This document shows positions 613 to 56,562 of a stretch of DNA of 64,000 bases, one piece after another. The stretch is from IMG/VR virus record IMGVR_UViG_3300045250_000069; one strand, written 5' to 3'. The DNA is from a virus. The notes under the pieces are model-generated. The model was not told the DNA's origin. It did no database searches and saw only the letters and a list, made by a program, of their open reading frames with translations. The translations under genes were made by a program, and so were the position numbers. The first letter of the stretch is position 1, and every line of letters begins with the position of its first letter.

Positions 613-795
613 ATGAAGAACTACACGGTGATGGTGCGGGGTATCCCGCACCGCATGCAGCTGGACGAAGAGCACGCGAAGCGGCTCGGCGCGGTACCGA
701 TCGAGGAAGCCGTAGCGCATTCGGTCGCGTCGCCGAAGCCGGTGCGTAAGGGCCGGGCTCCAGCGAACAAGAACCGCACGGTGGCAGACAAGTAG
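613..795 (+). CDS. Small basic head-associated protein
   Basis: GAGGAG RBS; ATG at 613; position after MCP. Confidence 0.65.
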   Translation: MKNYTVMVRGIPHRMQLDEEHAKRLGAVPIEEAVAHSVASPKPVRKGRAPANKNRTVADK

Positions 796-807
796 GGGGC
801 GCGGATC

Positions 808-2334: not shown

Positions 2335-2362
2335 TCGGCCCCACGCGGGCTAAACGCCACCC

Positions 2363-2397
2363 ACCCACGGGTGGCGTTTGTCGTTTCCACAGAAAGG
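2363..2397 (+). terminator. Hairpin AAACGCCACCC/GGGTGGCGTTT with T-rich tail before major tail gene
   Basis: Inverted repeat followed by TGTCGTTT. Confidence 0.5.
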
Positions 2398-2404
2398 GAA
2401 GCAA

Positions 2405-2986: not shown

Positions 2987-3073
2987 CAGTACCGGCGCGG
3001 TCGGGAACGCTTCGGGGTCGTGCCCGGCCGCGCCTTTAACCCCGCAACCCCGTCACCCTGAAAGGAAACCGTT

Positions 3074-3457
3074 ATGGCTACTCGCAAGAATGCGCCTGCC
3101 GCCGCCGAGTTCGACGACTGGTCGGACGAGCGCGAGGCTGAGGTACTCGAATCCATCGCAGAGCAGACGCGCGTCAAGCATGTCATCACCGCGGAGAAGC
3201 AGTTCTACGGCCGATTCGTTGACGGTGAGATCATCGGCCCGATCCCGTTGAAGCTGTCGCTCGCGACGCTCGAGGCACTCGACGAAGCGGGTGAGGCGCC
3301 CGTCGACCAGATGTCCACGCTGTTCACTCTGCTCGGCATGGAGACTGAGGCAGAGTCGGTTCGGGAGCGAGACCTCGCTGAGGTGATGAGTCTCGCGGAG
3401 AAGTATTTCGGTGCGCTCAACAAGCTTACGAACGTGGTGGTCGGCTCGGGGAAATAG
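3074..3457 (+). CDS. Tail assembly chaperone (short form)
   Basis: Between tail tube and TMP; ends at slippery GGGGAAA-TAG. Confidence 0.85.
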   Translation: MATRKNAPAAAEFDDWSDEREAEVLESIAEQTRVKHVITAEKQFYGRFVDGEIIGPIPLKLSLATLEALDEAGEAPVDQMSTLFTLLGMETEAESVRERDLAEVMSLAEKYFGALNKLTNVVVGSGK

Positions 3458-3837
3458 CGTTCGTCGCCCAGGTCATGCACGACTATCCGGACGAGCTCGC
3501 AGTGACGCTGCGGGGCGAGTTCGGGGTGTCGGTCTATGACGTGGGCGACGCCGTCTCCCCAGGTGAGGCGTTCTCGCTCATCAAGGTCGCCTATCAGGAC
3601 CCGTCGACGCGGCTCGGCGCCGCGGTGCAGAAGTGGGAGTATCCCGCCTCAATGGTTGACCTCGTGCAGATCGCCGCAGCGACCGGAGACAAGAGCGACG
3701 AAGTCCTGCCGTGGAGCGCACGCCAGCGACTTGATGAGTTGGCGGACCGCAAGGTCACTGAATCCGATGTGGAGGCGGGCCGGGCACGGCTCGCGCAGGT
3801 ATCAGCGTTCCGGCGGATGCCGGACTTCGATGGGTAG
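3448..3837 (+). CDS. Tail assembly chaperone extension via -1 frameshift
   Basis: -1 frame open from GGGGAAA (3448-3454): GEIAFVAQVMHDYPDE... Confidence 0.8.
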   Translation, partial: GEIAFVAQVMHDYPDELAVTLRGEFGVSVYDVGDAVSPGEAFSLIKVAYQDPSTRLGAAVQKWEYPASMVDLVQIAAATGDKSDEVLPWSARQRLDELADRKVTESDVEAGRARLAQVSAFRRMPDFDG

Positions 3838-3846
3838 GAGGCTGCT

Positions 3847-6800: not shown

Positions 6801-7173
6801 GCTGCTCGAGATCGTCGGTGACGCCTGGCAGGGAGTCAAGGACTTCTTCGGAATCGCTTCACCGTCACGGCTCATGCGCGACACGATCGGTAAGCAGATC
6901 CCGGCGGGTCTCGCGGTCGGTATCAAGCAGGGCGCGAGCGAGTCGACGAATGCCGCTTTGGCGATGTCGAAGCAGGTCGCGTCGGCTGCGCAGACCGCAG
7001 CCACGTATTCCTCGAGCGTGGACGTGCAACGCACCGACACGGGCCTCGCGGTCACGGATGCAGCGGGCCTCACGGTCAACTTCACCGTGAATGGCGAGAA
7101 GGGTCAGGATGTTGACGAGCTCGTCGACATCATCATGCAACGTCTGGGTGGCGTAAGCCGGAGGTTCCGATGA
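3847..7173 (+). CDS. Tape measure protein (1108 aa)
   Basis: Long Ala/Gly-rich ORF, tape-measure core, amphipathic repeats. Confidence 0.95.
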   Translation: MADSMVGHGYVQITPSMRGFRKTVNREVEGTAGEARRSFSARMKSAGRESGQSLGTSLKQTLTASAGDLGAGALKGLESNVAKAAGALSTARLKQQDEAGKVRVAEAKLAEAMKKYPEGASQIVAAEERVETARRRHKDATDKVTDASDRLRTAQDRLKTATDRVADSVDKVKLGSFAQQLRDGWKDARVANSQFSGVASSIGGIARAVSNASGLSKLGGIARAAAQRTSTAFGSLATMIGGKLSAGWTAASSWLSGVAGRVGGFLAPVGQLFSNLGTKLATPFVNLGTKIAGHLKPVTDSVKAFASKLPGPMGSAASGIGSTLASGLSGLVGKIGTVGRDLGARFASSVQSAATAGVAGVAAAVGAALAGGMGRLTSLDESIAKMKGLGFASEDIEKAMQIANDAAVGTSFAMNDLASAAAMAMTAGIKPGEQLVGYLDSIKGAATASGAPVQEIASIFGKVATAGTAYTTEIQQLADRQIPIWGELAEVMGVPAAEVKKLASEGKIDLVTFQTAVTNATGGMAEEMGKTLPAKIANTRSAFSRLGMALLGTKMEGDELVGGLFPAFKSFFDMVRTGVDAVTALIGPFFEKWTTSGGGKLVELFDSLTEKFTSFKETVSDGGGLDALGGQATNLAAVLAPVGAALAAIGIGGLAPLLARIPVLGGMLGGLGGAFAFLGGPIGIAAAAIAAFMATGADSSALVSGLTGIIDSVLAMLPGLIDTVVKVIPGIVDGILKAVPELLTAATGIVQGLIGGIVKATPLLAKGWVLLLNGLINAVVQNLPMIIQAAVTLVTTLIQGIVQALPLLIQGSISLITGLIQGIVTNLPMIIEAAIQLVMSLIEGIISMLPTLIEAAISLVTTLITAIAENLPLIIEAGIGLLLALVTGLLDALPELITAVLELIPAIVTTLLENLPQLVSAALEMILAIAGGLIQAIPELVAAIPEIIAAVFTAFTEVDWLSLGGDIIAGIVEGIVNAGGQIWDALLEIVGDAWQGVKDFFGIASPSRLMRDTIGKQIPAGLAVGIKQGASESTNAALAMSKQVASAAQTAATYSSSVDVQRTDTGLAVTDAAGLTVNFTVNGEKGQDVDELVDIIMQRLGGVSRRFR

Positions 7174-7937
7174 GCAGTGGTGTGCGGGTCGAGTACGGCG
7201 GGATCATGTTCCGGGGGAAGGGCTACACAGCAGTCCCTGGGGACAAAACGTTCGGTATTGCTCGTAGTGGCCTGCAGGGGTTTGATGCTCCTGCAGGCCG
7301 CCGCGGCGAGGACATCGCACGACCGGGGGACGGAAGCTTCGCGCTGGCGACTCATGCGGGCGCCGCGATCCGCTCGATCTCGGGTATCGCCGTCGCCAAC
7401 TCGCATCGCGAATTGATGGTGATGCGTGACGATTTCGCGGGGCTCGCGTCGGCCGATCTGCGACCGATGGTCTACTGGGTTGAGGGCATCCCTCGGAGCA
7501 CGGACGCTCAGGTGTGGGACCAGCCAACATGGGAGTGGGACCCGCGGGATCGCCACGCGAAGTTCCAGCTGATGCTGCGCTGCCCGTGGCCGTTCTGGCT
7601 TGGTGACGCGCACGCGCAGGAGCTCTCGACGGGGCTCGAGTTGGTGAATCGTGGGACGGCGAATGCGTGGCCCGTGATCAGGATTACGGGCCCGGTATCG
7701 ACGGCGTTTTCGATCACGGTCGGGGGCCGGAAGGTTCGCGTGGATCGCACGCTCACCGCGACACAGTGGGTTGAGATTACGACTCGTACGGGTGTCGCTC
7801 GGACGAACGCGGGGGAGCTGTTGCTGTCGGAAGTGACGGGGCTGATGCCGTACCTGCCGCCCGGAGTTTCGACGGTGGTGTTGTCGAACATTACCGCGCC
7901 GCGCGTCAAGTTTTCGTGGTCTGACACATACGTGTAG
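7170..7937 (+). CDS. Distal tail protein (Dit-like)
   Basis: First gene after TMP; LRCPWPFW and NRGTANAWP motifs. Confidence 0.8.
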   Translation: MSSGVRVEYGGIMFRGKGYTAVPGDKTFGIARSGLQGFDAPAGRRGEDIARPGDGSFALATHAGAAIRSISGIAVANSHRELMVMRDDFAGLASADLRPMVYWVEGIPRSTDAQVWDQPTWEWDPRDRHAKFQLMLRCPWPFWLGDAHAQELSTGLELVNRGTANAWPVIRITGPVSTAFSITVGGRKVRVDRTLTATQWVEITTRTGVARTNAGELLLSEVTGLMPYLPPGVSTVVLSNITAPRVKFSWSDTYV

Positions 7938-7945
7938 GGGGATGC

Positions 7946-9130
7946 ATGGCTTGGCGAATCGTGGCCGCTGACGCAGTGACTCGGAAAGTGTTTTATGACC
8001 TGACGAACGTCGCCACCGCGTCGTACTCGGCGGTGCTGAACGGCGCCGGGTCGGTGGACGTGACGATCCAAACCCGGGATGCGCTCACGCCCGTACCGGT
8101 GGAAGTGCTGCAGCTGTTGCGGCGTCGACAGAAGGCGACCGTGATCATCGTCGGATGGGTGCAGTCGTCTGGTGAGACGTACGCGGTCGCGGACGCACTG
8201 ATCGACACGTCATCGTGGAATCCTGGCACGGGCGTGCTGACGGTCTCGGGGGAGTCCGTGTGGTCTCTCATGGGCGAACGGATGATGTATCCGATGTGGG
8301 CGCGCGAGGTGATCGCGGGCGGCGGCACCGGAACGTTCTTCGTGGACTCCACGATCGAGGATGCGATGTGGTGGATCGTGGCCGCGTCGATCGGGCTCGG
8401 CAAAGAGATCTACCGCAACGGCGAGCTGATTTACGCGCCGACCGGGAATCATCACCGGCATCAGGATTTTCGGTGGTCGTCATCGACGGCGACGCAGTCT
8501 CGCCGGTGGGAGTTCCCGTACCGTGAACGCACCGCGCTCGAGATCCTCGAGGAGTTCCTCGGCTATGACGGTGCACCGGATGTCGCGCTCCAGCCACGCA
8601 TCGTGGATGAGGAGATCTATTGGCTGGTGCACACGAAGGTGGACATGCTGCGGTGGGAATCCGAGCTCGTGCATGATCGCGCTCCTGGTTTTCAGTCGCG
8701 GGTGACCGACCTGCAGATCGTGAAGGACGGCGTGCGCGGAACCACGTCACTGCTGAAAGTCGGCGGCGGTTCGGGCAAGTCGATGCAGTCCACGGCCGCC
8801 GTGTTCCAAGACATCGGCATCTCGGTGGAGGATCTTGACGGTCTCACTCGCGAGCGGATCACGTCAGCGAAGCAAGCGGACGATAATCCGCGGTTGCGGC
8901 GTCTCGCGGTCGCGGAACTCCGCGAAAACTATTCCGACATTGAGCAATGGTCGTTCGGTGTGCGCTGCGACGGCGAAGTTCCCCCGTCGCTGTTTATGCC
9001 TGGGGCTGGGGTGCGGTTGCAGTACGGCGGCGACGAACTCTATTCCGCGAAAGAGCACCTGTTTCAGATCCTCGGGGTGAGCGGTTCGACCGATTCCACG
9101 CAGCTCAGATTGGACATCCAGAATGCCTAA
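7946..9130 (+). CDS. Baseplate hub / Tal-like minor tail protein
   Basis: Synteny; YSAVLNGAGS N-terminal motif. Confidence 0.75.
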   Translation: MAWRIVAADAVTRKVFYDLTNVATASYSAVLNGAGSVDVTIQTRDALTPVPVEVLQLLRRRQKATVIIVGWVQSSGETYAVADALIDTSSWNPGTGVLTVSGESVWSLMGERMMYPMWAREVIAGGGTGTFFVDSTIEDAMWWIVAASIGLGKEIYRNGELIYAPTGNHHRHQDFRWSSSTATQSRRWEFPYRERTALEILEEFLGYDGAPDVALQPRIVDEEIYWLVHTKVDMLRWESELVHDRAPGFQSRVTDLQIVKDGVRGTTSLLKVGGGSGKSMQSTAAVFQDIGISVEDLDGLTRERITSAKQADDNPRLRRLAVAELRENYSDIEQWSFGVRCDGEVPPSLFMPGAGVRLQYGGDELYSAKEHLFQILGVSGSTDSTQLRLDIQNA

Positions 9131-10157
9131 AGAGAACCTGCGCCGAGATGATGATGGCGGGATTGGTGACCTGTCGAAACAGATCAAAGACCTCCAGACC
9201 GCGAACCCGCTCGAGAACGGATCAGTCGACACTGGCACGCTCACGATCCGTTCAAGCCAGGACGGGCTCGTGATCGAGGCGGGCGGGCAATTCCTCGCGA
9301 AGGACGGCGCGACCATCCTCATTGAGGCGCTGCTGCGAGTGACGGGGCAAACCCAACTCGGGGACACATGGACCAATCAACTCATCTCGAACGGCAACCT
9401 GTTCGCGAACGGCCAGCTTGCGGTCGAGGGCAAAACCTATTTGAACGACATCCTCGACGTGGATGGGACCACCGACCTCCGTGGCCGAGTGAATTTTCGC
9501 AACGATCTGTACGCACTCGAGCTTCCAGAGGCGTCGTCTCCAACGTCGATGAACATCGTGCTGGTCGATGATGGCGGAAAGTTCTATCGGGGCCCGAAGT
9601 ATTCGTCTGGTGGTACGGGTGGCTCGGATAACCCGACTTCGCCTGGCGGGTTGGGTGAGGGCCCGGCTGCGCCGTTTTCGTATCAGGCGTTTTCGATTGG
9701 AAATGGGTCGGGCGAGGCAGACTTCGGGACTCGGAACACCGCGAAGGGCTGGCATGACGGGCTCGACTTCGCGTATGACGGCGCCGGGTACGGTGCTGCG
9801 GTGAGGTCGGTCGCGACTGGCACGGTCGTGAACTCGTCCTATGCGAATCATTCTGATGCCGGCCCCTACCCTGTGTGCATTGATCATGGGCCGCTCGAGG
9901 CTGGATCGCACGCGGGGAGGCGACTCTATTCGGTGTATTGGCACATGCTGGACCGCACGGTGTCGGTCGGCGATTCGGTGACGGCAGACACGGTGATCGG
10001 GCATGTCGGCGCGTACGGCAATGTCACGGGGCCGCACCTGCACCTCGAGCTGCATCTGGATTCGCTGCACTCGAATTGGCCGGTGCTTGGCCTTGATTCG
10101 TCGACTGGTGCGCAGGATCCTGTTCCGATTTTTAATGAGTATGGGGGCTGGCGGTAA
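9123..10157 (+). CDS. Minor tail protein with C-terminal M23 peptidase
   Basis: HxxxD (WHDGLD) and HxH (GPHLHLE) motifs. Confidence 0.85.
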   Translation: MPKENLRRDDDGGIGDLSKQIKDLQTANPLENGSVDTGTLTIRSSQDGLVIEAGGQFLAKDGATILIEALLRVTGQTQLGDTWTNQLISNGNLFANGQLAVEGKTYLNDILDVDGTTDLRGRVNFRNDLYALELPEASSPTSMNIVLVDDGGKFYRGPKYSSGGTGGSDNPTSPGGLGEGPAAPFSYQAFSIGNGSGEADFGTRNTAKGWHDGLDFAYDGAGYGAAVRSVATGTVVNSSYANHSDAGPYPVCIDHGPLEAGSHAGRRLYSVYWHMLDRTVSVGDSVTADTVIGHVGAYGNVTGPHLHLELHLDSLHSNWPVLGLDSSTGAQDPVPIFNEYGGWR

Positions 10158-10627
10158 TGGCGAAATATAGCGGTACGGTTGTGCGGCCGTCGAGTGTGGC
10201 GCATGTGGCGTCGGCTCGGGCGCAGTTGCAAGTAAAGCTGGCGGAGCCGGGGACGCGTTCGGGATCGCTGGTGAATGACGACACCATCGTTGTTGACGTG
10301 CCGTCATCGGGCGCGTTCGAGGTCGATTTAATCCCGTCTCCGCAGATTCTCTCCCGGTCTGGTCGGCCCGCAGTGTATAGCGTCGCGGAGTCGTGGCTGG
10401 ACCCTGACGGCGTGCAGATCCCCGGCGGGTACTCCGAGTGGGGGACGTTCTACCTTGGCGCGTCTGGCGGCACGCTCTCGCAATATAAGGTGGCGCCGCC
10501 TGGCACGCCGGTCATCGAATGGGTGTCGACCCTCGCGGAAGCGCAGGCCCTCGAACCGACCCTCGCGAAGGGCTCAATCATCATCGTCGCCGGTAGCACG
10601 GCCTGGAATGTTTACGAGGTGTCGTAA
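10157..10627 (+). CDS. Minor tail protein
   Basis: Coupled TAATG starts within tail operon. Confidence 0.65.
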   Translation: MAKYSGTVVRPSSVAHVASARAQLQVKLAEPGTRSGSLVNDDTIVVDVPSSGAFEVDLIPSPQILSRSGRPAVYSVAESWLDPDGVQIPGGYSEWGTFYLGASGGTLSQYKVAPPGTPVIEWVSTLAEAQALEPTLAKGSIIIVAGSTAWNVYEVS

Positions 10628-12183
10628 TGGCTCTAACACTGATTGGCAGTATCGCCGCAATTACTGACGCGGTGGCTGCGAACCTCGTATCCGGCCCGAC
10701 GCAGACTCGTGCCGCGGTTGACGCGCGCGTGCGCGGCATTGTGCCGGCTGAGGTGTCGTCGCAGATCGCGAACTCTACGACGTTGCAGGCTGCGTTGGCG
10801 GCGATGATCGGCAATCTCGGTGATGCGAACCTCGCGGCGGAGTATGCGCGCACGATTACGCCGACTGCGGATTGGAACACGCTCACTCAGCGTGGTGTGT
10901 GGCGGCGCGCGTCAGCGACTCCGAACGGGTCGAACGTGCCGCCGACGCAGGCGTCGGGCACGCTGTATGTGACGAAGTCGAACGAGCAGACTGACCAGGC
11001 TGGCGGGCAACTGTTCATGGCCGCTGACGGTATTTGGTACCGCAGCGTTTCTGATGCGGGCGTGTGGTCGGAGTGGCGTGCGCTCGATTCCGACTATCGC
11101 GGGCTGATGCCGGATGGACAGTCGATCGATGACATGACCGGCCAGCAGTGGACTGGGCAATGGTATGTGCCGTCTACTGCTGCGGCGGACGCGCTGGTGG
11201 GTGCGAAACCGCCGATGAGCGGGCCGGGCACGTTCACGGTCGTGTCGTCGCGCACGTCGGGCTATTCGCACACGGTGCAGTGGTGGTCGATGCACCTGCT
11301 GTCAGGCTCGAAGCTGTTTATGCGGCTCACGGTCGCGTCGGGCGCGTTCAATGACTGGATTGAGGTTGGCGGTGCCGGGAGTAGTGCTGGCGCGCGTGAC
11401 CTGCGCCTGCAACTGTTTGAGGAGGCGTACCCGCTCGTTTCGACAGGGAATAAGGGCGTCGTCGTGCTTCGGTATGACCACGGCCTCACGAATTTCAAGT
11501 CGACGATCCTGCCGTTGCATCAGCAATACAATCTGCCTGCCTATATCGCGATGAATTCCCGCAACTGGTCGCTCGATGAGAACTCGGGCGCAACGCAGGA
11601 GGAAGCCCGGTCGTGGGCGAACGTCGAATGGGGCAACCATTCCGCCGACCACGAAGACAAGTCGGGTGGGGCCGCGATCTACGACAACATCGTGAACGGC
11701 CGCATCGAGCTCGAAGCCCAGTTGGAACGCACGATCCACGGCTACACCGCGCCGGGGTTGACGGGCGGCCAGTTCGACGGGTTCAACACCGGCTGGGTCG
11801 ACGGCTACTCCAACACGCCCGCGGGTGCGATGATCCTCGACCATCACGCGATCGCGTCCGGCGGGATCGGCGACACGAACTTCCGCCCCCTGGACGGGAA
11901 GATCCGCATCGGTGGCCGGCATTACACGTGGGAGCAGCGCACGTACGCACAAATCAAGGCCGAGATCGATACTGCGATCTCGACCAAGACCGCGCTGACG
12001 ATTATGGCGCACCCGCGCACGATGAACCAGTCCGGGTATTGGACGCCGGCACTGTTGGAGCAGGTGCTGGCCTATATTCGGTCGCAGATCGATGCGGGGA
12101 ACCTCGCTGATCTGACCTACTACCAGTCGCAGCATGCGGTGTTGCGGACGCCGGTCGAGGCATTCCAGGCCGCACTCGCCTAA
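10627..12183 (+). CDS. Tail fibre/RBP 1: knob-like repeats plus CE4 polysaccharide-deacetylase-like domain
   Basis: W-rich repeats; LRYDHG, GNHSADH, MAHP motifs. Confidence 0.75.
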   Translation: MALTLIGSIAAITDAVAANLVSGPTQTRAAVDARVRGIVPAEVSSQIANSTTLQAALAAMIGNLGDANLAAEYARTITPTADWNTLTQRGVWRRASATPNGSNVPPTQASGTLYVTKSNEQTDQAGGQLFMAADGIWYRSVSDAGVWSEWRALDSDYRGLMPDGQSIDDMTGQQWTGQWYVPSTAAADALVGAKPPMSGPGTFTVVSSRTSGYSHTVQWWSMHLLSGSKLFMRLTVASGAFNDWIEVGGAGSSAGARDLRLQLFEEAYPLVSTGNKGVVVLRYDHGLTNFKSTILPLHQQYNLPAYIAMNSRNWSLDENSGATQEEARSWANVEWGNHSADHEDKSGGAAIYDNIVNGRIELEAQLERTIHGYTAPGLTGGQFDGFNTGWVDGYSNTPAGAMILDHHAIASGGIGDTNFRPLDGKIRIGGRHYTWEQRTYAQIKAEIDTAISTKTALTIMAHPRTMNQSGYWTPALLEQVLAYIRSQIDAGNLADLTYYQSQHAVLRTPVEAFQAALA

Positions 12184-12200
12184 CCACACTCTCTCACTCA

Positions 12201-12225
12201 AGCCACCCCTGCGGGTGGCTTTTTT
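12201..12225 (+). terminator. Intrinsic terminator between the two fibre paralogs
   Basis: AGCCACCC-CTGC-GGGTGGCT-TTTTT. Confidence 0.85.
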
Positions 12226-12259
12226 GTTGCACCCACACGGTGCGGAAAGGGGCAGACCG

Positions 12260-13699
12260 GTGGATGACGACCTGGTGCAGCTCGCAACCCTGATCGGTGT
12301 TGAACTCAAAACCCGTGGCACGATCCGTGCACTCATCCCCGCCGACACGGACGTGAACACGCTCCGCACCCCCGGCGTGTATGCAGTCGCATCGACCACG
12401 ATCGCTGCCTCACTCATCAACTGGCCGGAACCGGTCACGGGGCTTCTCGTGGTCGAAAAAACGCCCCAGAACCAGATGACGACGCAGAACGTGTACCTGT
12501 ACAAGTCAACATCGCAGCCACCGAAGAAATACTCGCGCGTGAACCGTCTCGCATCGAACGATGCGTGGACGGCGTGGGGTTCCCCGGAATGGGCGCAGGC
12601 CGTGTTCGGCGGCACGTCCGAGACTCCCGCGAACGTTGACATGCATGTCGAGGCGGGCGCGTGGCTCGTCACCGCACCGGCCACGGTGACTGGTTTGCCG
12701 GCGGTGACGGCGACCGGATGGATTATCGAGAATCTGCGGTTCCGTGACTCGACAGTGATGCTGCAGCGTGCGACGGCTCGCACGTCGGGTGCGCCTCGCG
12801 TGTTCACTCGGGTCGGTGCGGTGCCTGCCGCGACGGGTTGGAATGGTGCCGCCTGGCATGAACTCGCGGCCGGTGGTGGAACCACGCCGGTTGTGGCGGA
12901 GGACGCGGGGCTCGCGAACGCGATGCTGCTGCAGGACTTCGTGCGCCGGCGCGGTGGCCGCAAGAAAGTGACGACCGGGGTTATTTCGTTCCGTTTCGAT
13001 CATGGCCTCGCGAACTTCGACACGAAGATCCGGCCACTGCTCGAGGCCCGCAACATCCCGTACAGTCTCGCGCTCTGCTCCGGCCAATGGTCACGTTCGG
13101 AGAACGTCGGTGTGACTGCGGCGATGGTCAACGGCTGGGTTGAGGGTGGTCTCGCGGAGGTCTGGAACCATTCGAAGGATCATGGCTCGGGCGACAACTC
13201 GACTGCGCAATGGCAGGCCGCGATCCAGGACGGTCTCACCGAACTGCAGGCGCAAATTCCGGCCGCGCAGATAGACGGCTGGGCACCCCCAGGTTCCTCT
13301 GGTACGGACTTTGGCGGGTTCACGAACGGTGGCACGATCCCGCAACTGTTGACCGAGGGGGGCCGCTATATCCTCGCGCGGCACGCGATCACTGCCGGCT
13401 ACCTGTCTGGCACCGTGTATCGGCTGTTGGATGGGAACCCGCGTAACGCGCTCACGCATGTGACGGGGGATAAGCAGACGCAGGCGCAGCTCGAGGCGTA
13501 CCTGAATGGCGCGGTCTCGCAACGCAAGGGCGTGCAGATCATGATTCATCCGTCGCTGGTCGACTCGGAGGGGTATATCACGACGGCGGAGATCGAGGGG
13601 TTCCTGGATGCGGTAGTGACCGCTCGCGACGCTGGCCAGGTGGCGGTGATGGGGCCGTACGACGCGCTCCTCGCTGACGCGACCGACGCTGCGATCTAA
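12260..13699 (+). CDS. Tail fibre/RBP 2: knob-like repeats plus CE4-like domain (paralog)
   Basis: GTG start after GAAAGGGG; FRFDHG, WNHSKDH, MIHP motifs. Confidence 0.72.
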   Translation: MDDDLVQLATLIGVELKTRGTIRALIPADTDVNTLRTPGVYAVASTTIAASLINWPEPVTGLLVVEKTPQNQMTTQNVYLYKSTSQPPKKYSRVNRLASNDAWTAWGSPEWAQAVFGGTSETPANVDMHVEAGAWLVTAPATVTGLPAVTATGWIIENLRFRDSTVMLQRATARTSGAPRVFTRVGAVPAATGWNGAAWHELAAGGGTTPVVAEDAGLANAMLLQDFVRRRGGRKKVTTGVISFRFDHGLANFDTKIRPLLEARNIPYSLALCSGQWSRSENVGVTAAMVNGWVEGGLAEVWNHSKDHGSGDNSTAQWQAAIQDGLTELQAQIPAAQIDGWAPPGSSGTDFGGFTNGGTIPQLLTEGGRYILARHAITAGYLSGTVYRLLDGNPRNALTHVTGDKQTQAQLEAYLNGAVSQRKGVQIMIHPSLVDSEGYITTAEIEGFLDAVVTARDAGQVAVMGPYDALLADATDAAI

Positions 13700-13759
13700 C
13701 CGCGCCCCAAACGTTGATCCCCGTTACGGGGCCATTTTTCATGCCTGAAAGGGGCAGCA

Positions 13760-14653
13760 ATGACTCATTCGAAGCTCACGAACAAGATCAGTCTCAGCAG
13801 CCAGTCGAGTTCGCGTGACGGCACGAAGATCGATCGGTTCCTCGTTCACCACGCAGCAAGCACCTCGCAGTCCGGCGTGGTCGACATGATGGTGCGCGCG
13901 ACCCGCACAGTCTCGGCGAACTATGTCATCGGCGACACAATCACCTGTGTCGTTGACGAGGATCGCCGCGCCTGGACTTCTGGCGCGTCGGGTGACGGCG
14001 GCCGCGGCGCAGCGTTCGACACGCGCTCAATCACCGTCGAAACCATCAATGACTCGACGGACGGTTGGACGGTCAGCGACAAGACGTTCGACAACCTCGC
14101 GCGCCTCATCGCCGATTGCGCCACCCGCTACGACTTCGACATCACCGATGACACCGTGCTCACGCACCAGGAACTCTGGTCGCGGTTCCGTGCTTCGTAC
14201 GCAACCGCGTGCCCTGGGGATTTGCAGCGCCGTAAGGCCGAGCTGTTGAAGCTCGCGAAGTCCTACCAGGACGGCAAGGCCACCGGGGGTGGTACTGCCG
14301 CGTCGAAGCCTGCGACGTCGACGCCGGCGCGCGCCTCGTGGGAGGCGACCGCGTTCGGCATCGGCACCACCGCCACCGCCGCGCAGTGGAAGACGATTCA
14401 GAGCTGGCTCAAGAAGCTGGTCCGCTATGACGGCCCCGTTGATGGTGTGCCCGGCCAGAACACCTGGAAGGGCATTCAGCGCACCGTCGCCAAGTACGGC
14501 TACTACGACGGCCCCATCGACGGTGTTCCCGGCACGAACACCGCGAAGGGAATGCAGTCCTACGCACGCAACGGCGGCGGCTACACCGGCCCCACCGACG
14601 GCGTGCTCGGCGCGAACTCGTGGGCCGGGTTCGTCAAGCGGCTTTCGAGCTAG
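13760..14653 (+). CDS. Endolysin: Zn amidase (Amidase_2-like) plus peptidoglycan-binding repeats
   Basis: VHHAA...HQE...ACPG ligands; three DGxxGxxT/S repeats. Confidence 0.9.
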   Translation: MTHSKLTNKISLSSQSSSRDGTKIDRFLVHHAASTSQSGVVDMMVRATRTVSANYVIGDTITCVVDEDRRAWTSGASGDGGRGAAFDTRSITVETINDSTDGWTVSDKTFDNLARLIADCATRYDFDITDDTVLTHQELWSRFRASYATACPGDLQRRKAELLKLAKSYQDGKATGGGTAASKPATSTPARASWEATAFGIGTTATAAQWKTIQSWLKKLVRYDGPVDGVPGQNTWKGIQRTVAKYGYYDGPIDGVPGTNTAKGMQSYARNGGGYTGPTDGVLGANSWAGFVKRLSS

Positions 14654-14661
14654 GAGCGATC

Positions 14662-15078
14662 ATGCCGAAGCGTCTCGTGACCTGGATGCATGACCCGCCC
14701 GAGTGGCGGCCGGTGTGGCTTGGAGGGCATCTGTGGGGTGCGCTCATGGGCGCCGTCACGCTCACCGCGCCGCCGCTCACGATCAAGGGCGAGCTCGGGC
14801 CTGTCCTCACCACCGTGTGGGGAATCCTCGCATTGGTCGGTTCGCTCATCGCCGCCGCGAACGTCTACTCGCGGCATGCATGGGCGGAACGCCTCGGTAT
14901 CCAGATCGCGGCGCTCGGCACCGGCCTCTACTCCGCAACAATCCTCTACCTGTGGGTTTCCACGGGGGAGAACCGCGGCACACAATTCTTCGCCGTGTCG
15001 CTCGGCCTGTTCTTCTTCCTGGCGCGGTTCCTCACGGTCGAGCACTGGGACGACCGCGACCTCGCACGGGAGATCTGA
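14662..15078 (+). CDS. Multi-TM lysis-cassette membrane protein
   Basis: About 4 hydrophobic segments; AGGAG RBS. Confidence 0.7.
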   Translation: MPKRLVTWMHDPPEWRPVWLGGHLWGALMGAVTLTAPPLTIKGELGPVLTTVWGILALVGSLIAAANVYSRHAWAERLGIQIAALGTGLYSATILYLWVSTGENRGTQFFAVSLGLFFFLARFLTVEHWDDRDLAREI

Positions 15079-15416
15079 TGCCGCTCTGGGAATACATCGT
15101 CTCGCTCGCGACGGCACTCGGTGTCGGCACGATCGTTCCCAAGATATTCGACAAGCTGGCCGCGAACATGACCGAGCGAGGGCAGCGCCGCAGGAAGGAC
15201 GCGGAGCGCCTCGCGCAGCTCGTGGACGAAGCGAAGCGCGAGCGAGACGAAGCGATCGCGCACCGCGACGTTGAAGCGTCCCGTCGTCGCCGCCTCGAGG
15301 AACATGCGTCGCGGCTGCGCCGAATCCTCGCGGAAGCACCGTGCGTCGACTTCGACACGATCCCGCCCTGGCCTGGAGGCACGGGGCCAACACCTACGCA
15401 AGGAGACTACAAGTGA
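15078..15416 (+). CDS. 1-TM plus coiled-coil lysis-cassette protein
   Basis: N-terminal hydrophobic helix, charged coil. Confidence 0.7.
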   Translation: MPLWEYIVSLATALGVGTIVPKIFDKLAANMTERGQRRRKDAERLAQLVDEAKRERDEAIAHRDVEASRRRRLEEHASRLRRILAEAPCVDFDTIPPWPGGTGPTPTQGDYK

Positions 15417-15655
15417 CCTCTACCCCGAACCTCGGCGCTGTGATTCAGTCGCCCACCGCCCGCCGTTGGATTTACGGCGTCTACATCATCGCTGTGTTCA
15501 TCATCGGATGTGTTCAGGTCGGCTTCGCTGCGGTGGATGCTGGCCAGCCTGACTGGCTGACGGTCGCTCTCGCGGTCGCCGCGTACGCGGGTGTCCCTGT
15601 TGGCGCGCTCGCCGCAGCGAACACGTCAACCTCTACCGGCAAGCACACCGAATAA
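15413..15655 (+). CDS. Holin (2 TM)
   Basis: ARRWIYGV then two TM helices; AAGGAG RBS. Confidence 0.8.
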   Translation: MTSTPNLGAVIQSPTARRWIYGVYIIAVFIIGCVQVGFAAVDAGQPDWLTVALAVAAYAGVPVGALAAANTSTSTGKHTE

Positions 15656-15676
15656 CCTTCATCCCCAACGATTGAA

Positions 15677-15713
15677 GCCCCCACCTTCACGCTGAGCGCG
15701 TGCGGGTGGGGGC
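15677..15713. terminator. Probably bidirectional terminator after lysis cassette
   Basis: GCCCCCACC/GGTGGGGGC stem between convergent genes. Confidence 0.7.
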
Positions 15714-15731
15714 GCTTTCGTCGTTTCCGGG

Positions 15732-15917
15732 CTACGACCGCACCCAGGCGATGACTTCACCCTCGCCAAGCTCGACCAGCCCACGCGCCTCCTCAAGCGT
15801 CGACGCCGCGATCTCGACCTCGCGCGGCGCATCCACCTCCGGTCGATCGCCGAGCGCGTCACGCTCCGTCTCCGAGAGAGCAGCAGCAGTATTGACGGTC
15901 TTGATCATCACGTGCAT
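15732..15917 (-). CDS. Small acidic hypothetical protein
   Basis: TAAGCT -10-like hexamer 7 nt before ATG (leaderless). Confidence 0.55.
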   Translation of the reverse strand: MHVMIKTVNTAAALSETERDALGDRPEVDAPREVEIAASTLEEARGLVELGEGEVIAWVRS

Positions 15918-15943
15918 GGCATTGAGCTTAGGCCGCGGGCAGC

Positions 15944-16009
15944 CTTGCAACGGAGGGAATAATATTCCCAACTCACTTGAATCGGGCATATTATTCCCTC
16001 GCTTGCAAG
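15944..16009. promoter_or_regulatory. 26-bp-arm inverted repeat containing two GGGAAT-N3-ATTCCC-type palindromes
   Basis: CTTGCAAcgGAGGGAATAATATtCCC / GGGcATATTATTCCCTCgcTTGCAAG. Confidence 0.7.
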
Positions 16010-16011
16010 AG

Positions 16012-16033
16012 TGTCGGCGGCGGGAGCTACCCT
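16012..16033 (+). promoter_or_regulatory. PafBC-type (RecA-NDp) DNA-damage promoter
   Basis: TGTCGG-N10-TACCCT; -10 lies at -12..-7 relative to ATG 16040. Confidence 0.7.
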
Positions 16034-16039
16034 CTGCGC

Positions 16040-16336
16040 ATGAGCAAGCAGCATCTAGAGGGTGCCGACGCGATCGTCGCCGCGATCGAGGCGCAGGCGC
16101 GCCAATCCCATCCGCTCGCCGAGACGATCCACCCAGGTCAGGTGTGGCGCGTGCACGGCCACAGCACCGCGACGATCGGCTGGGTGCGGTACCTCGTGCC
16201 AGAGCGTGGCACCGGGCCCGCCTATCACGCCTACGCTGACCGGCGTGAGGATGGTGTACGGCCGTGGCTCAAGAGCTTCGCGACACTCGACTCAGCCGTG
16301 GCATGGGTCTACCAGCACCGCGGGGAGCTCAGCTGA
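16040..16336 (+). CDS. Hypothetical 98-aa protein, probably leaderless
   Basis: MSKQHLEGAD...; ATG 7 nt after -10. Confidence 0.7.
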   Translation: MSKQHLEGADAIVAAIEAQARQSHPLAETIHPGQVWRVHGHSTATIGWVRYLVPERGTGPAYHAYADRREDGVRPWLKSFATLDSAVAWVYQHRGELS

Positions 16337-16511
16337 GATCGTCCACGATGCTCTCGATCGTGCCCTGACGTCCGCGGAACTCGATCACATCCGGCAACTC
16401 GGCATACTCGTGCAGCACCGCCACGCAGGCATTCACGGCCTCAAGCTGACGGTCCGCAGGCACCTGCTCAATGAGAGCACCGAGCACGTCCAGGGCTTCC
16501 TCAAGATCCAT
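16329..16511 (-). CDS. Small acidic helical hypothetical protein
   Basis: MDLEEALDVLG...; convergent overlap with 16040-16336. Confidence 0.5.
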   Translation of the reverse strand: MDLEEALDVLGALIEQVPADRQLEAVNACVAVLHEYAELPDVIEFRGRQGTIESIVDDLS

Positions 16512-16539
16512 GCGGGGGAGTCTACGCGGCGTAGTTTCG

Positions 16540-16598
16540 TGCCCACTTTTTGCCCACATTTTGCCCACGAAACTCACGCTTTGCCCACATTTGCCCAC
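16540..16598 (+). repeat. Integrase arm-type sites, P arm (5 x TGCCCAC)
   Basis: Copies at 16540, 16551, 16562, 16582, 16592. Confidence 0.75.
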
Positions 16599-16703
16599 AC
16601 TTTCCACCGCTCTCAGCATCCCGCCACATCCACCGCACCCCGCCGACTTACCAGGTAAACACTGGGCACGCGGCGAAAACACGGCGGAGACAACAACCTC
16701 GGC

Positions 16704-16732
16704 ACGCGGGTTCGATTCCCGTCATCCCCTCG
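16704..16732 (+). other. attP core = 3' half of a tRNA (T-arm and acceptor strand, most like tRNA-Gly)
   Basis: ACGCGGG-TTCGATT-CCCGT-CATCCCC-T; flanked by arm repeats on both sides. Confidence 0.85.
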
Positions 16733-16740
16733 CAGTACAT

Positions 16741-16788
16741 CGCCCCGCCTTGCCAGTAGAACACTGGGGAGGCGGGGCGTTTCTCGTT
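16741..16788. terminator. Terminator next to att core
   Basis: CGCCCCGCCT/AGGCGGGGCG stem then TTTCTCGTTT. Confidence 0.75.
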
Positions 16789-16794
16789 TCCCCA

Positions 16795-17874
16795 CTAGCC
16801 TTCTGCCCACATTTTGCCCACACTTTCGGACAGTGCCGACGCGACCGCATCAAGATCCGTGTCGAAAAGATCCGCATACACATCGAGCGTCACCGCGGCC
16901 GAAGCATGCCCGAGCATCCGCTGAACCGCCTTCACGTTCGCGCCAGACTGCACCGCGAGCGACGCCGCAGTATGCCGCAGATCGTGCGGAGTCACACGAG
17001 GGAACCGCTTATCTGTGGCGCGGCAGCGGTTCACCGCACCCGCAAACCAGCCATGGTCAGCATTGGGGCGCTTCACCCGGTCGCCGTCGACCTGCCAGAC
17101 CGGCACTCCCGGCATCGCCCGCGGCACGAGCTTGAGGATGAAGTCAGGGATGGGGACTTCTCTGGACTCCCACGTCTTCACGGCCTCGGTGATCCACTCG
17201 CCTCCGCGGTACGTCATTGACTTCGTGACGAGGATTCGCCGGCGCCGCCAGTCAATGTCATCCCCGTCGAGCGCGACCGCCTCGCCCCAGCGCAGGCCGG
17301 TGAGTGCGAGGAATCGGACGAGCGCGCCGTACCGAGACTCGCGCGCGAGGGCATCGACCTGCGCTGCGGTTAGGTAGGCGTGGCGCCCTTTCTGTTTGCG
17401 GGGGAGCTCTACGGTCGCATCGCGGGCAGGGTTCGAGCGGATGAGCTTGTCACTCACCGCGAGGTCGAGGATGCCGGCGAGCACGCCACGAGCCCGGTGC
17501 ACGACGGTGGGGGACTTGTCGATGCTGTTTGCCCACTCGTGGACCTCGGACGGCAGGATGCCACCGATCGGGGTGGCCGACCAGTAGGGCTGAACGTGGA
17601 TGCGCCACGCCGATTCGAGGTCGCGTTGATAGCTCGCCTTCTTCTTGCTCTTGAGCGCGAGCCAACGTTCAGCGAGCGAGCCGACGGTGACCTTGCCCTT
17701 CGCTGGGTCGATGTAGTCGCCGGTGAGTTTGGCGACCTCGACGGTCGCGGCGAACGCCTCGGCGTCCTTCTTGCGAGCGAACCCGCGCTTGTCGGTCTGC
17801 GCGCCGTCAGGCTTGCGGTAGCGCACACGGTAGCGAGGGCCAGCGTTGGTCTCGTACTTCGTGATCGTCGCCAT
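16795..17874 (-). CDS. int: Tyrosine integrase (prophage)
   Basis: GLRWGE, HDLRH, LGH, catalytic Y; start MATITKY. Confidence 0.95.
   Translation of the reverse strand: MATITKYETNAGPRYRVRYRKPDGAQTDKRGFARKKDAEAFAATVEVAKLTGDYIDPAKGKVTVGSLAERWLALKSKKKASYQRDLESAWRIHVQPYWSATPIGGILPSEVHEWANSIDKSPTVVHRARGVLAGILDLAVSDKLIRSNPARDATVELPRKQKGRHAYLTAAQVDALARESRYGALVRFLALTGLRWGEAVALDGDDIDWRRRRILVTKSMTYRGGEWITEAVKTWESREVPIPDFILKLVPRAMPGVPVWQVDGDRVKRPNADHGWFAGAVNRCRATDKRFPRVTPHDLRHTAASLAVQSGANVKAVQRMLGHASAAVTLDVYADLFDTDLDAVASALSESVGKMWAEG
16804..16821 (+). repeat. Integrase arm-type sites, P' arm (2 x TGCCCAC), inside int 3' end
   Basis: Copies at 16804 and 16815, 11-bp spacing. Confidence 0.7.
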
Positions 17875-17884
17875 GATTTTTCTT

Positions 17885-18277
17885 TCATTCGGTGCCGCGC
17901 CACAGTAAGTCAGCGCGCCGGTAATTTGAAGCGGAGGAAAGCCACACGCGCAGCATGTGAGGAGTGACGGCGAGTTCGTCACACCACCGCTCTGGGTGGT
18001 CTGGATGGCTACGGGCGCACGCGACGACAAGTTCGGCGGTGATCAGCATGTCGGCTGCCCATCGATCAGCACGGGCCTCGCTCTTGCGAGTGGTGGTGGT
18101 GTCGCCGTAGTGGTGGTGCCCGAGCTCGTGCGCGAGTGCGCTTCGCCTGGACATGTAGGTGATGCCTCTACGAACGACGATGAGGTCGTGGCGATGGTAG
18201 TAGCGGCCCATCTCGGGGATATCTGCTTCGACCACCTCGAGTGCGTGCTCTGCAGCGTGCAAGTCTGGGTCCCACAT
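17885..18277 (-). CDS. immA: ImmA/IrrE-family metallopeptidase (anti-repressor)
   Basis: AHELGHH HExxH and EARADRWAA; start may be 18289. Confidence 0.88.
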   Translation of the reverse strand: MWDPDLHAAEHALEVVEADIPEMGRYYHRHDLIVVRRGITYMSRRSALAHELGHHHYGDTTTTRKSEARADRWAADMLITAELVVACARSHPDHPERWCDELAVTPHMLRVWLSSASNYRRADLLWRGTE

Positions 18278-18308
18278 GGGACAGATCATGCGCTGAGCCT
18301 GCGACATA

Positions 18309-18911
18309 TCAGTCTTTGTCGAGTTCGTCCTCGCTCTCGTCATTGCCTGCGACATATCCGAGTTCGGGGATTTCCCTTGGCGCGGTGAACCGTGAACCGA
18401 ATCGGTCGTCCGCATCGATGACGTTGCCCGGCGCGTCGGTCTCGATGTGCTTTTCGAGTTGCTTGACACGGATGTTGATTTCGTTGAGGAGTTGCTCGGT
18501 CGTAAACGAAGACAATGCTGAGCGTCGGTCATTCGTCTCCCGGAGATTCATGTCCCAGACCTCGGCGTCGTAAGCCTCCTGTGCTTCCCAGTTCGCCGGC
18601 ATGTCGATGAGATCGGAGGACTCGCTGCCCTCTTCCTGGGCGAGCAACCAGGCTTGCCGGTCGCGCATGTCTTGTTTCCACTCATCAAAGTTCGGGATGT
18701 CGAGATCGTCCGGGAAGTTCGAGATGAAGTGCGAGTACCTGAGTTCGTCGCCAAGCGCGCGTTCGATCTTGCGTGTGCTGCGGCTCGGCACACCGGTCGT
18801 TTCCCAGTTGACGATCGTGCGGACGCTGACTCCTACGGCGTCCGCTAGATCTTGCTGCGTCCACCCTTTGAGCGCGCGTGCGTCTTTGAGGACTGTCCAA
18901 TCAATGTTCAC
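18309..18911 (-). CDS. Immunity repressor, XRE HTH with acidic C-terminal domain
   Basis: ARALKGWTQQDLADAVGVSVRTIVNWE; divergent from cro. Confidence 0.85.
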   Translation of the reverse strand: MNIDWTVLKDARALKGWTQQDLADAVGVSVRTIVNWETTGVPSRSTRKIERALGDELRYSHFISNFPDDLDIPNFDEWKQDMRDRQAWLLAQEEGSESSDLIDMPANWEAQEAYDAEVWDMNLRETNDRRSALSSFTTEQLLNEINIRVKQLEKHIETDAPGNVIDADDRFGSRFTAPREIPELGYVAGNDESEDELDKD

Positions 18912-41021: not shown

Positions 41022-41033
41022 GGGGCGCGGATC

Positions 41034-56143: not shown

Positions 56144-56265
56144 GGCATTGAGCTTAGGCCGCGGGCAGCCTTGCAACGGAGGGAATAATATTCCCAACTC
56201 ACTTGAATCGGGCATATTATTCCCTCGCTTGCAAGAGTGTCGGCGGCGGGAGCTACCCTCTGCGC

Positions 56266-56562
56266 ATGAGCAAGCAGCATCTAGAGGGTGCCGACGCGAT
56301 CGTCGCCGCGATCGAGGCGCAGGCGCGCCAATCCCATCCGCTCGCCGAGACGATCCACCCAGGTCAGGTGTGGCGCGTGCACGGCCACAGCACCGCGACG
56401 ATCGGCTGGGTGCGGTACCTCGTGCCAGAGCGTGGCACCGGGCCCGCCTATCACGCCTACGCTGACCGGCGTGAGGATGGTGTACGGCCGTGGCTCAAGA
56501 GCTTCGCGACACTCGACTCAGCCGTGGCATGGGTCTACCAGCACCGCGGGGAGCTCAGCTGA
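56266..56562 (+). CDS. Hypothetical protein under PafBC-type promoter (copy 2)
   Basis: Same as 16040-16336; promoter at 56238-56259. Confidence 0.7.
   Translation: MSKQHLEGADAIVAAIEAQARQSHPLAETIHPGQVWRVHGHSTATIGWVRYLVPERGTGPAYHAYADRREDGVRPWLKSFATLDSAVAWVYQHRGELS

What the first reader, a model, noticed from the sequence alone, without database searches (positions are those of the whole stretch)
16012..16336. Prophage orphan gene wired to the host PafBC (LexA-independent) DNA-damage pathway
Seen: TGTCGG-CGGCGGGAGC-TACCCT, with TGTCGG at -28..-23 and the -10 at -12..-7 relative to ATG 16040, the geometry of a leaderless transcript. Established: actinobacterial PafBC activates promoters with TGTCGG-N10-TA (the -26 element). 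I found no canonical LexA box in the prophage. Inference: the phage senses DNA damage through PafBC to express a 98-aa protein of unknown function (co-inducer of ImmA, recombination-directionality factor, anti-defence or toxin). I know of no described PafBC-controlled phage module, but could not search. Caveat: the motif is short.
Basis: partly seen in the sequence, partly recalled or inferred. Interest (0 to 1): 0.75.

Follow-up and report, generated by a model that had tools for sequence, protein, structure and literature searches.

The report
Damage-switch promoter on a prophage gene
A small phage-carried gene of unknown function sits behind the special promoter that actinobacteria use to switch on DNA-repair genes after DNA damage, and its relatives on chromosomes, plasmids and other prophages almost all keep that promoter, so it looks like a real but unnamed member of the damage response; nothing shows it is the phage's induction trigger.

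Summary
TGTCGG (16012-16017), a 10-nt spacer, TACCCT (16028-16033) and 6 nt precede ATG 16040. This matches the published PafBC consensus tGTCgg(N10)tA(N3)T at -28..-23 and -12..-7. There is no Shine-Dalgarno sequence and no canonical -35. The site is not chance. All 13 homologue loci read by eye, and most of 30 further Microbacteriaceae loci, carry the same box at the same distance from the start codon, while flanks and spacers differ. In [Zimmermannella] faecalis, which has tandem pafB-pafC genes, the motif occurs 12 times against 1 for a reversed control. There it precedes recA, radA, a uvrD-like gene and that strain's prophage copy of this gene. "Orphan" is wrong. The 98-aa protein belongs to an unnamed family found in 34 of 401 Microbacteriaceae genomes and 27 plasmids. 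Some copies sit at conserved chromosomal sites; the window's copy falls in a clade from prophages and other mobile elements. Its alpha-beta5-alpha fold matches no solved structure. No LexA box is present. A role as induction trigger, recombination-directionality factor or toxin has no support. Best reading: a damage/ssDNA-inducible, PafBC-type, leaderless accessory gene in the slot between lysis genes and attP. The scan had already noted this gene trio on other DNA.

The parts
16012..16017 (+). -26 element TGTCGG (PafBC-type box), at -28..-23 relative to ATG 16040
   Evidence: consensus from PMC8635444; conserved in homologue loci
16028..16033 (+). -10 hexamer TACCCT (TAnnnT), 10 nt after the -26 element and 6 nt before the ATG
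   Evidence: no sigma-70 -35 at 16-18 nt on this strand
16040..16336 (+). 98-aa CDS (P0001), predicted leaderless; alpha-beta5-alpha fold; unnamed family
   Evidence: no Pfam or PHROG hit; pLDDT 90.4; 22-34 synonymous-only codon differences between homologues
56238..56562 (+). Exact second copy of the promoter and CDS, in the 16,732-bp repeat (offset 40,226)
15732..15917 (-). Divergent 61-aa gene, also leaderless-looking (TAAGCT, 7 nt, ATG); kept in L003 and L009 but absent in L001, in plasmid copies and in chromosomal copies
15944..16009 (.). AT-rich double palindrome (boxes at 15955-15969 and 15984-15998) inserted between the two divergent promoters; unique to this spot and absent from L003 and L009
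16329..16511 (-). Convergent 60-aa gene overlapping the P0001 stop codon; no family hit
   Evidence: kept in L003
16540..16830 (.). attP: TTTGCCCAC arm repeats on both sides of a core resembling a tRNA 3' end, which ends at 16732 where the long repeat ends
16795..18030 (-). Tyrosine integrase
17885..18307 (-). ImmA-like M78 metalloprotease (HELGH motif), 140 aa from ATG 18307
18309..18911 (-). ImmR-like HTH_3 repressor, about 200 aa from GTG 18911

Best explanation
The site is a PafBC-dependent ('RecA-NDp', sigma-adaptation) promoter. When single-stranded DNA accumulates (DNA damage, and plausibly phage or plasmid replication), host PafBC would bind the -26 box, bridge it to SigA region 4, and start transcription at or next to the A of ATG 16040, giving a leaderless mRNA for a 98-aa alpha/beta protein. 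The protein belongs to an unnamed Microbacteriaceae family whose members almost all carry this promoter type, whether chromosomal, plasmid-borne or prophage-borne. The phage copy is therefore a self-contained, damage-inducible accessory gene (a moron) in the variable slot between the lysis cassette and attP. It is not a demonstrated part of the lysis-lysogeny switch. Shown here: motif, geometry, conservation, regulon context in a related host, purifying selection and a confident fold. Inferred: PafBC binding, damage induction and the transcription start. The most speculative step (about 40%): with no catalytic motif and a small compact fold, the protein acts by binding a host DNA-damage-response or DNA-processing component, the same job as its chromosomal cousins.
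For: The match to the published consensus and positions is exact. The footprint begins at TGTCGG in the alignment with the [Zimmermannella] faecalis prophage, and the upstream flank is unrelated. Thirteen loci read by eye keep a box-N9/10-(-10) unit, eleven of them 6-11 nt (ten 6-7 nt) from the start codon and two Clavibacter plasmid copies with a leader of about 65-70 nt, while the spacers differ. In 30 further Microbacteriaceae loci, 12-13 strict matches lie directly upstream of the gene, and most of the rest are one-letter variants 6-7 nt from ATG or GTG. The genome-wide rate in G001 is only 12 per 2.8 Mb, against 1 for the reversed control. In G001 the motif precedes radA, a uvrD/pcrA-like gene, clpX and recA, several with the same leaderless spacing. 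G001 encodes tandem PafB-like (WYL+WCX) and PafC-like (HTH_PafC+WYL+WCX) genes. There is no canonical -35 and no Shine-Dalgarno sequence. Codon differences between homologues are 22-34 synonymous-only against 16-32 amino-acid-changing. The family is in 34 of 401 genomes with housekeeping neighbours at syntenic sites and on 27 plasmids. The window's copy sits in a well-supported clade from prophages and other mobile elements.
Against: The window's host genome is not held, so pafBC in the actual host is inferred from relatives. One close homologue (L009) has TGTAGG, which loses the C of the GTC triplet that PMC8635444 calls strictly conserved. Some subfamilies have TGACRG or TGCCAG, so tolerance of variants or a different regulator cannot be excluded. 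The protein's function is unknown: no Pfam, PHROG or solved-structure match.
Confidence: 0.7

Rival explanations
1. Induction trigger. The PafBC-driven protein is the phage's DNA-damage input, acting as an antirepressor of the ImmR-like repressor or as a co-activator of the ImmA-like protease. This would be LexA-independent prophage induction, the PafBC analogue of LexA-controlled antirepressors such as coliphage 186 Tum.
For: The phage has an ImmR/ImmA-type module and no LexA box. The [Zimmermannella] faecalis prophage that carries a homologue has the same int-ImmA-repressor layout. The window's copy belongs to a clade from prophages and other mobile elements. Several genomes hold multiple copies, as expected if each element needed its own.
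Against: Family members with the same promoter sit at conserved chromosomal sites among housekeeping genes and on plasmids, with no immunity module nearby. There is no similarity to any known antirepressor. The gene lies in the variable accessory slot, far from the immunity region.
Confidence: 0.12
2. Mobile-element entry or counter-defence factor. The protein is made whenever the element's own single-stranded or replicating DNA activates PafBC. It would then inhibit a host nuclease, restriction system or the damage response itself, working like plasmid PsiB or ArdC-type leading-region genes.
For: Copies lie next to an ArdC-like gene (L007), an N6 DNA methylase and an MmeI-type restriction-modification gene, and an SLFN/AlbA_2 gene with an IS element. 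Copies also lie on conjugative plasmids. PafBC is activated by ssDNA (PMC11804915). The small alpha/beta fold is typical of inhibitor proteins.
Against: The neighbour associations are loose and not operonic. Syntenic chromosomal copies have housekeeping neighbours. The structural matches to PsiB (Z 3.9) and to an anti-Cas protein (Z 4.4) are within noise.
Confidence: 0.15
3. The promoter is not PafBC-dependent. The box would be read by another regulator (for example the third WYL protein seen in G001), or would simply be part of a constitutive SigA promoter.
For: Variant boxes (TGTAGG, TGACRG, TGCCAG) break the 'invariant' GTC. G001 has a third WYL gene. There is no experimental evidence.
Against: The same strict motif precedes recA, radA and a uvrD-like gene in G001. 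These are classical PafBC targets in mycobacteria (recA in PMC8635444; radA and uvrD from my own knowledge). The geometry matches the cryo-EM-defined promoter class exactly. There is no -35, so unaided SigA recognition is unlikely.
Confidence: 0.08
4. The protein is a recombination-directionality factor, or one half of a toxin-antitoxin or abortive-infection pair with one of its small neighbours.
For: It lies about 200 bp from the attP arm sites and is flanked by two small genes. The trio is kept in L003.
Against: The neighbours are absent in L001, in plasmid copies and in chromosomal copies. There is no HTH, excisionase, PADLOC-type or toxin family hit in Pfam or PHROGs. Chromosomal copies have no integrase nearby. 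An earlier scan follow-up also found the three genes separable (e1-3292703).
Confidence: 0.05

Closest known systems
PafBC-dependent (RecA-NDp, 'sigma adaptation') promoters of mycobacteria, e.g. recA P1 (PMC8635444; PMC11804915)
   Same: Same 22-nt architecture tGTCgg(N10)tA(N3)T. Same positions (-28..-23 and -12..-7). No -35. In a related Microbacteriaceae genome with pafBC, the motif co-occurs with those of recA, radA and a uvrD-like gene.
   Different: Here the promoter is on a temperate phage (and, for relatives, on plasmids) in Microbacteriaceae, driving an uncharacterised small protein. My literature searches turned up no described phage gene under PafBC. Function is untested.
LexA-controlled prophage accessory genes and antirepressors (coliphage 186 Tum; Gifsy antirepressors and dinI-like morons; Lemire et al. 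2011, cited in PMC12392091; details from my own knowledge)
   Same: A small, self-contained, damage-inducible gene placed far from the immunity region of a temperate phage. The family also has chromosomal and plasmid copies, like DinI and ImpC.
   Different: The regulation is by an ssDNA-sensing activator that replaces the -35 contact, not by loss of a repressor. There is no sequence or fold similarity. Antirepressor activity is not shown.
WYL-activator networks that couple DNA damage to mobile-element or defence genes (DdaA in Moraxellaceae, PMC12392091; DriD in Caulobacter, PMC9186387)
   Same: A WYL-domain, ssDNA-sensing activator drives genes beyond core repair.
   Different: DdaA binds about 50 bp upstream of the start and is stated not to use sigma adaptation. 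Its targets are host defence systems, not a phage gene.
ImmR/ImmA switches (ICEBs1, phage phi105; from my own knowledge)
   Same: The window's phage has an HTH repressor followed by an M78 HEXXH protease next to the integrase.
   Different: No link between that module and the 98-aa protein could be established.

Membership tests
PafBC-dependent (RecA-NDp) promoter | tGTCgg box at -28..-23 | tested here: met
   TGTCGG at 16012-16017, which is -28..-23 from A of ATG 16040; consensus
PafBC-dependent (RecA-NDp) promoter | 10-nt spacer followed by a TAnnnT -10 element | tested here: met
   CGGCGGGAGC then TACCCT
PafBC-dependent (RecA-NDp) promoter | No canonical -35 hexamer | tested here: met
   The sigma-70 scan finds no + strand promoter using this -10. 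The nearest TTGCAA is 19 nt away, outside 16-18 nt.
PafBC-dependent (RecA-NDp) promoter | GTC triplet conserved among orthologous promoters | tested here: met
   GTC is kept in 10 of 13 loci read by eye (12 of 13 keep the G and the C), and strict matches occur in 12-13 of 30 further loci. Exceptions are TGTAGG (L009), TGACRG (L033, L034) and TGCCAG (L058-L065).
PafBC-dependent (RecA-NDp) promoter | Same motif on core damage-response genes in a host that encodes PafB and PafC | tested here: met
   Met in the related host [Zimmermannella] faecalis (G001): recA, radA, a uvrD-like gene and clpX, with tandem WYL/WCX/HTH_PafC genes. The window's own host genome is not held.
PafBC-dependent (RecA-NDp) promoter | PafBC binding, PafBC-dependent induction by DNA damage, and a mapped transcription start | not testable with these tools
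LexA-controlled antirepressor module (Tum / Gifsy type) | LexA box at the promoter | tested here: not met
   No TCGAAC-N4-GTTCGA with 1 mismatch or fewer anywhere in the window
LexA-controlled antirepressor module (Tum / Gifsy type) | Protein binds and inactivates the phage repressor | not testable with these tools
   No experimental assay is available here; no homology to known antirepressors
Excisionase / recombination-directionality factor | Small DNA-binding (winged-helix / HTH_17-type) protein associated with an integrase | tested here: inconclusive
   No Pfam or PHROG hit. The model is alpha-beta5-alpha. Many family members have no integrase nearby. Recombination-directionality factors are diverse, so this is not formally excluded.
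Type II toxin-antitoxin pair | Conserved adjacency with a cognate partner gene | tested here: not met
   The flanking small genes are missing in L001, in plasmid copies and in chromosomal copies

The most novel reading that the evidence does not exclude
The temperate phage senses DNA damage through host PafBC and not through LexA/RecA. The PafBC-induced 98-aa protein would inactivate the ImmR-like repressor, directly or by activating ImmA. That would be the first LexA-independent, WYL-activator-wired prophage induction circuit in Actinomycetota, with sister copies doing the same for other prophages and integrative elements.
Probability: 0.12. Interest if true: 0.8.

Novelty: new member of a known kind. 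Interest (0 to 1): 0.45.

Why it matters
[quoted passage not shown] This finding gives a clean, comparatively validated case of a temperate phage (and of plasmids) carrying a gene with its own PafBC-type leaderless promoter. It also defines an unnamed, confidently folded small-protein family that behaves as a signature member of the PafBC-type regulon in Microbacteriaceae. That family is a concrete target for asking what small effectors the LexA-independent response deploys, and whether phages time anything (induction, counter-defence, damage tolerance) through PafBC. As it stands it extends a known promoter class to a new gene and a new carrier; it does not reveal a new mechanism.

Tried and rejected
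1. Complex prediction of ImmA + ImmR + P0001 was unreachable five times. When it ran, it returned 'no answer' (median score 0.19, mark 0.32). I do not use it as evidence either way.
2. Fold searches gave no named match. Foldseek against the PDB had a best E-value of 0.5. VIA-align wide had a best Z of 4.7, within noise. AlphaFold DB clusters and the ESM Atlas returned only unnamed Actinomycetota proteins. The Atlas feature search scored 0.81 or less, which is chance level.
3. Pfam and PHROGs gave nothing for P0001 or for either small neighbour.
5. Metagenome loci could not be extended to look for immunity modules.
6. The search for related loci with the broad alignment failed. With a narrower alignment it found only the known [Zimmermannella] faecalis prophage in IMG/VR.
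7. tblastn found no homologue in 50,697 phage records.
9. The AT-rich palindromes are not repressor operators shared with the immunity region. They occur only at 15955 and 15984.
10. One-mismatch PafBC-like sites elsewhere in the phage are about as frequent as chance once the duplicated hits are removed.

Full report
**What is in the sequence.** One search shows TGTCGG (16012-16017), a 10-nt spacer, TACCCT (16028-16033), six bases and then ATG at 16040. The ORF runs to 16336 and encodes 98 aa. If transcription starts at the A of the ATG, the two boxes lie at -28..-23 and -12..-7. There is no Shine-Dalgarno sequence. A sigma-70 scan finds no promoter on this strand that uses this -10 with a -35 at 16-18 nt. 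The published PafBC consensus is tGTCgg(N10)tA(N3)T. Its upstream half sits at -23 to -28 (the '-26 element'), it has a canonical -10, and it has no -35. PafBC inserts between the DNA and SigA region 4 and reads the two guanines of the GTC triplet (PMC8635444). ssDNA is the activating ligand (PMC11804915).

**Where the gene lies.** The window holds an exact 16,732-bp direct repeat, 1-16732 = 40227-56958, so the phage unit is 40,226 bp. The repeat ends inside a sequence resembling a tRNA 3' end. TTTGCCCAC arm repeats flank it on both sides, so 16540-16830 is an attP-type junction. The second junction, at 56958, leads into a different integrative element that has its own integrase and an AAA_25 protein. 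To the left of the gene lie an amidase endolysin and holin-like ORFs. To the right, beyond attP, lie the integrase, an M78 ImmA-like protease with an HELGH motif, and an HTH_3 repressor. The gene thus occupies the variable slot between the lysis cassette and attP. In the integrated prophage that slot is the extreme right end. No genome is held for this window.

**Is the motif more than chance?** Within the window the strict pattern occurs once per phage unit, against 0.24 expected per 64 kb. That is suggestive only. The comparative evidence is decisive.

- A homologue with 72% identity lies at the right end of a prophage in [Zimmermannella] faecalis ATCC 13722, next to a different att core.
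- In the pairwise alignment, similarity begins exactly at TGTCGG and the upstream flank is unrelated.
- Every further homologue locus I could fetch keeps the unit, while spacers and flanks differ. L001, L003 and L007 have TGTCGG-N10-TA(C/G)NCT-N7-ATG. L009 has TGTAGG-N10-TATCCT-N7-ATG. L025 and L028 have TGTCGC-N10-TAGNNT. L027 has GGTCGG-N9-TACATT-N6-ATG. L029 has TGTCGGTG..CACGAT-N7-ATG.
- Plasmid copies have TGAC(A/G)G-N10-TAnnnT-N6-GTG in Frigoribacterium and Frondihabitans. In Clavibacter they have (C/G)GTCGG-N10 followed by TACGCT or TGCGCT, with a leader.
- In 30 loci from 401 Microbacteriaceae species genomes, 12-13 strict matches lie immediately upstream of the gene. Most others differ by one letter and sit 6-7 nt from an ATG or GTG.
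- Genome-wide, the strict pattern occurs only 12 times in 2.8 Mb of [Zimmermannella] faecalis, against once for the reversed control. Chance therefore predicts roughly 0.01 hits or fewer in all these upstream windows together.
- Several database gene calls start inside the promoter (for example P0007, P0009 and P0013). The conserved ATG or GTG downstream of the -10 is the likely true start.

**Is it the PafBC regulon signature in these hosts?** In [Zimmermannella] faecalis the 12 sites precede the following genes:

- radA, with the ATG 6 nt after the -10;
- a uvrD/pcrA-like helicase;
- clpX;
- a 130-aa ORF I take, from its sequence alone, to be DUF4262-like;
- recA (site at C7:51861-51882, gene at 50946-51731);
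- the prophage copy of this gene;
- two small lipoproteins, one of them inside the same prophage.

The genome encodes adjacent, overlapping PafB-like (WYL+WCX) and PafC-like (HTH_PafC+WYL+WCX) genes. The motif therefore marks the core damage regulon of a related host that has the regulator, and it shows the same leaderless spacing there. That PafBC itself binds the site, that the gene is damage-inducible, and where the transcript starts are all inferences.

**What is the protein?** It is a real gene. Between homologues, 22-34 codons differ only synonymously, against 16-32 that change the amino acid. AlphaFold2 gives a confident model with mean pLDDT 90.4. It has an N-terminal helix, five strands and a C-terminal helix. 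Pfam and PHROGs give nothing. Foldseek against the PDB gives nothing below E 0.5. VIA-align reaches only Z 4.7. AlphaFold DB and the ESM Atlas return only unnamed Actinomycetota proteins.

The gene is not an orphan.

- The family has 15 representatives at E below 1e-3 among 1.8 billion proteins.
- It occurs in 34 of 401 Microbacteriaceae genomes, with up to six matches per genome.
- It occurs on 27 Microbacteriaceae plasmids, and in none of 50,697 deposited phage records.
- Two subfamilies occupy conserved chromosomal positions. Their neighbours are housekeeping genes such as nitroreductase, MsrB/SelR, fatty-acid desaturase, LysR and UbiA.

A maximum-likelihood tree places the window's protein in a supported clade (96/94) of 11 sequences. 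These come from prophage right ends, from an ArdC-bearing element, from an IS/SLFN context, or from contexts I could not assign. The clade is separate from the chromosomal-syntenic clades and from the plasmid clades. The tree is unrooted, so the direction of transfer is open. A further clade member, L068, again follows a VanY-type lysin and precedes a non-coding gap and host genes.

**Mechanism.** Best reading (about 0.7): this is a self-contained accessory gene that is inducible by damage or ssDNA and activated by PafBC through sigma adaptation. It is transcribed as a leaderless mRNA. Its product performs whatever small-protein function the family has in the LexA-independent damage response. 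With no catalytic motif, that function is most likely stoichiometric binding to a partner.

This is not excluded. Both prophages examined have an int-ImmA-repressor module and no LexA box, and the phage copies form their own clade. But family members with the same promoter also occur at plain chromosomal sites and on plasmids. That shows the wiring alone does not imply an induction role. I put this reading at about 0.12.

A role at element entry or in counter-defence is about 0.15. The support is a set of loose neighbours: an ArdC-like gene, a methylase, an MmeI-type gene and an SLFN gene. Recombination-directionality-factor and toxin-antitoxin readings are unlikely, because the flanking small genes are dispensable across the family. 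This agrees with an earlier scan note on the same trio in another genome. A joint fold of ImmA, ImmR and the protein gave no verdict, and I do not count it either way.

**Comparison with what is known, and novelty.** The promoter is a member of the known PafBC/RecA-NDp class, and every sequence-level defining feature is met. What is new is the cargo and the carrier: an uncharacterised family that behaves as a signature regulon member in Microbacteriaceae, and its presence on a temperate phage and on plasmids. Full-text searches found 20 papers that mention both PafBC and prophage and 5 that mention both RecA-NDp and phage. Judging by titles, abstracts and the two papers I opened, none describes a phage gene controlled by PafBC. 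Functionally, the nearest analogues are LexA-controlled prophage morons and antirepressors, here with an activator in place of a repressor. The scan itself has already noted PafBC-type promoters on other mobile genes, so the theme is recurring. I rate it a new member of a known kind, with interest 0.45.

Noticed in passing
window 1-16732 and 40227-56958: Exact 16,732-bp direct repeat at offset 40,226. The first junction (about 16540-16830) has arm repeats on both sides of a core resembling a tRNA 3' end, like a native attP. This means a head-to-tail tandem prophage, or a circular form assembled with the integrated one.
   Followed up: partly
window 56959-64000: After the second att core a different integrative element begins, with its own tyrosine integrase (57124-58293, +) and an AAA_25-domain protein (60321-61910). 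It looks like a satellite-like element stacked at the same att site.
   Followed up: partly
window 15944-16009: An AT-rich double palindrome (GGGAATAATATTCCC and GGGCATATTATTCCC) lies between the two divergent promoters. It is found nowhere else in the window. It is absent from the otherwise collinear loci L003 and L009, so it looks like an inserted element or a private operator.
   Followed up: partly
window 15732-15917 (-): The divergent 61-aa gene also has leaderless geometry (TAAGCT, 7 nt, ATG). L003 and L009 show the same arrangement. In L003 the two back-to-back promoters are only about 11 nt apart.
   Followed up: partly
L013 (G001:C4:46861-46882, -) and L012 (G001:C2:115100-115121): In [Zimmermannella] faecalis two paralogous small lipoproteins (117 and 126 aa) sit behind canonical TGTCGGTG-N8-TAnnnT boxes with leaderless spacing. 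One lies inside the same prophage, about 3 kb from the homologue of this gene. It is a second prophage gene with a PafBC-type promoter.
   Followed up: no
L070-L188 (IMG/VR matches): Among 39 matches to TGTCGGTG-N8-TAnnnT-N6-ATG in high-GC viral contigs, 22 have the ATG opening an ORF of 50 aa or more in the GC3-rich frame. These include a recurring 48-59-aa family (L165, L150, L071, L101, L077, L151), DUF3263 proteins (L081, L132) and an HNH_3 endonuclease (L175). PafBC-type leaderless promoters may be common in actinobacterial (pro)phage DNA.
   Followed up: partly
L033, L034, L043 (TGACRG); L058, L060, L062, L063, L065 (TGCCAG): Whole subfamilies of the gene carry variant boxes in which the middle base of the 'invariant' GTC is changed but the G and the C are kept. 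This could show which positions PafB really reads, or it could point to a diverged regulator.
   Followed up: no
L007 4001, L025 3001, L029 498, L001 (P0005): Database gene calls for several homologues start upstream, inside the -26 or -10 boxes. The conserved start 6-7 nt after the -10 is the likely true start, so leaderless genes appear to be systematically mis-called.
   Followed up: partly
window 33503-33524 (+): A one-mismatch PafBC-like site (TGTCGC-N10-TATATT), using the same TGTCGC variant seen upstream of homologues in L025 and L028, lies near the head of the late region. I did not examine it.
   Followed up: no
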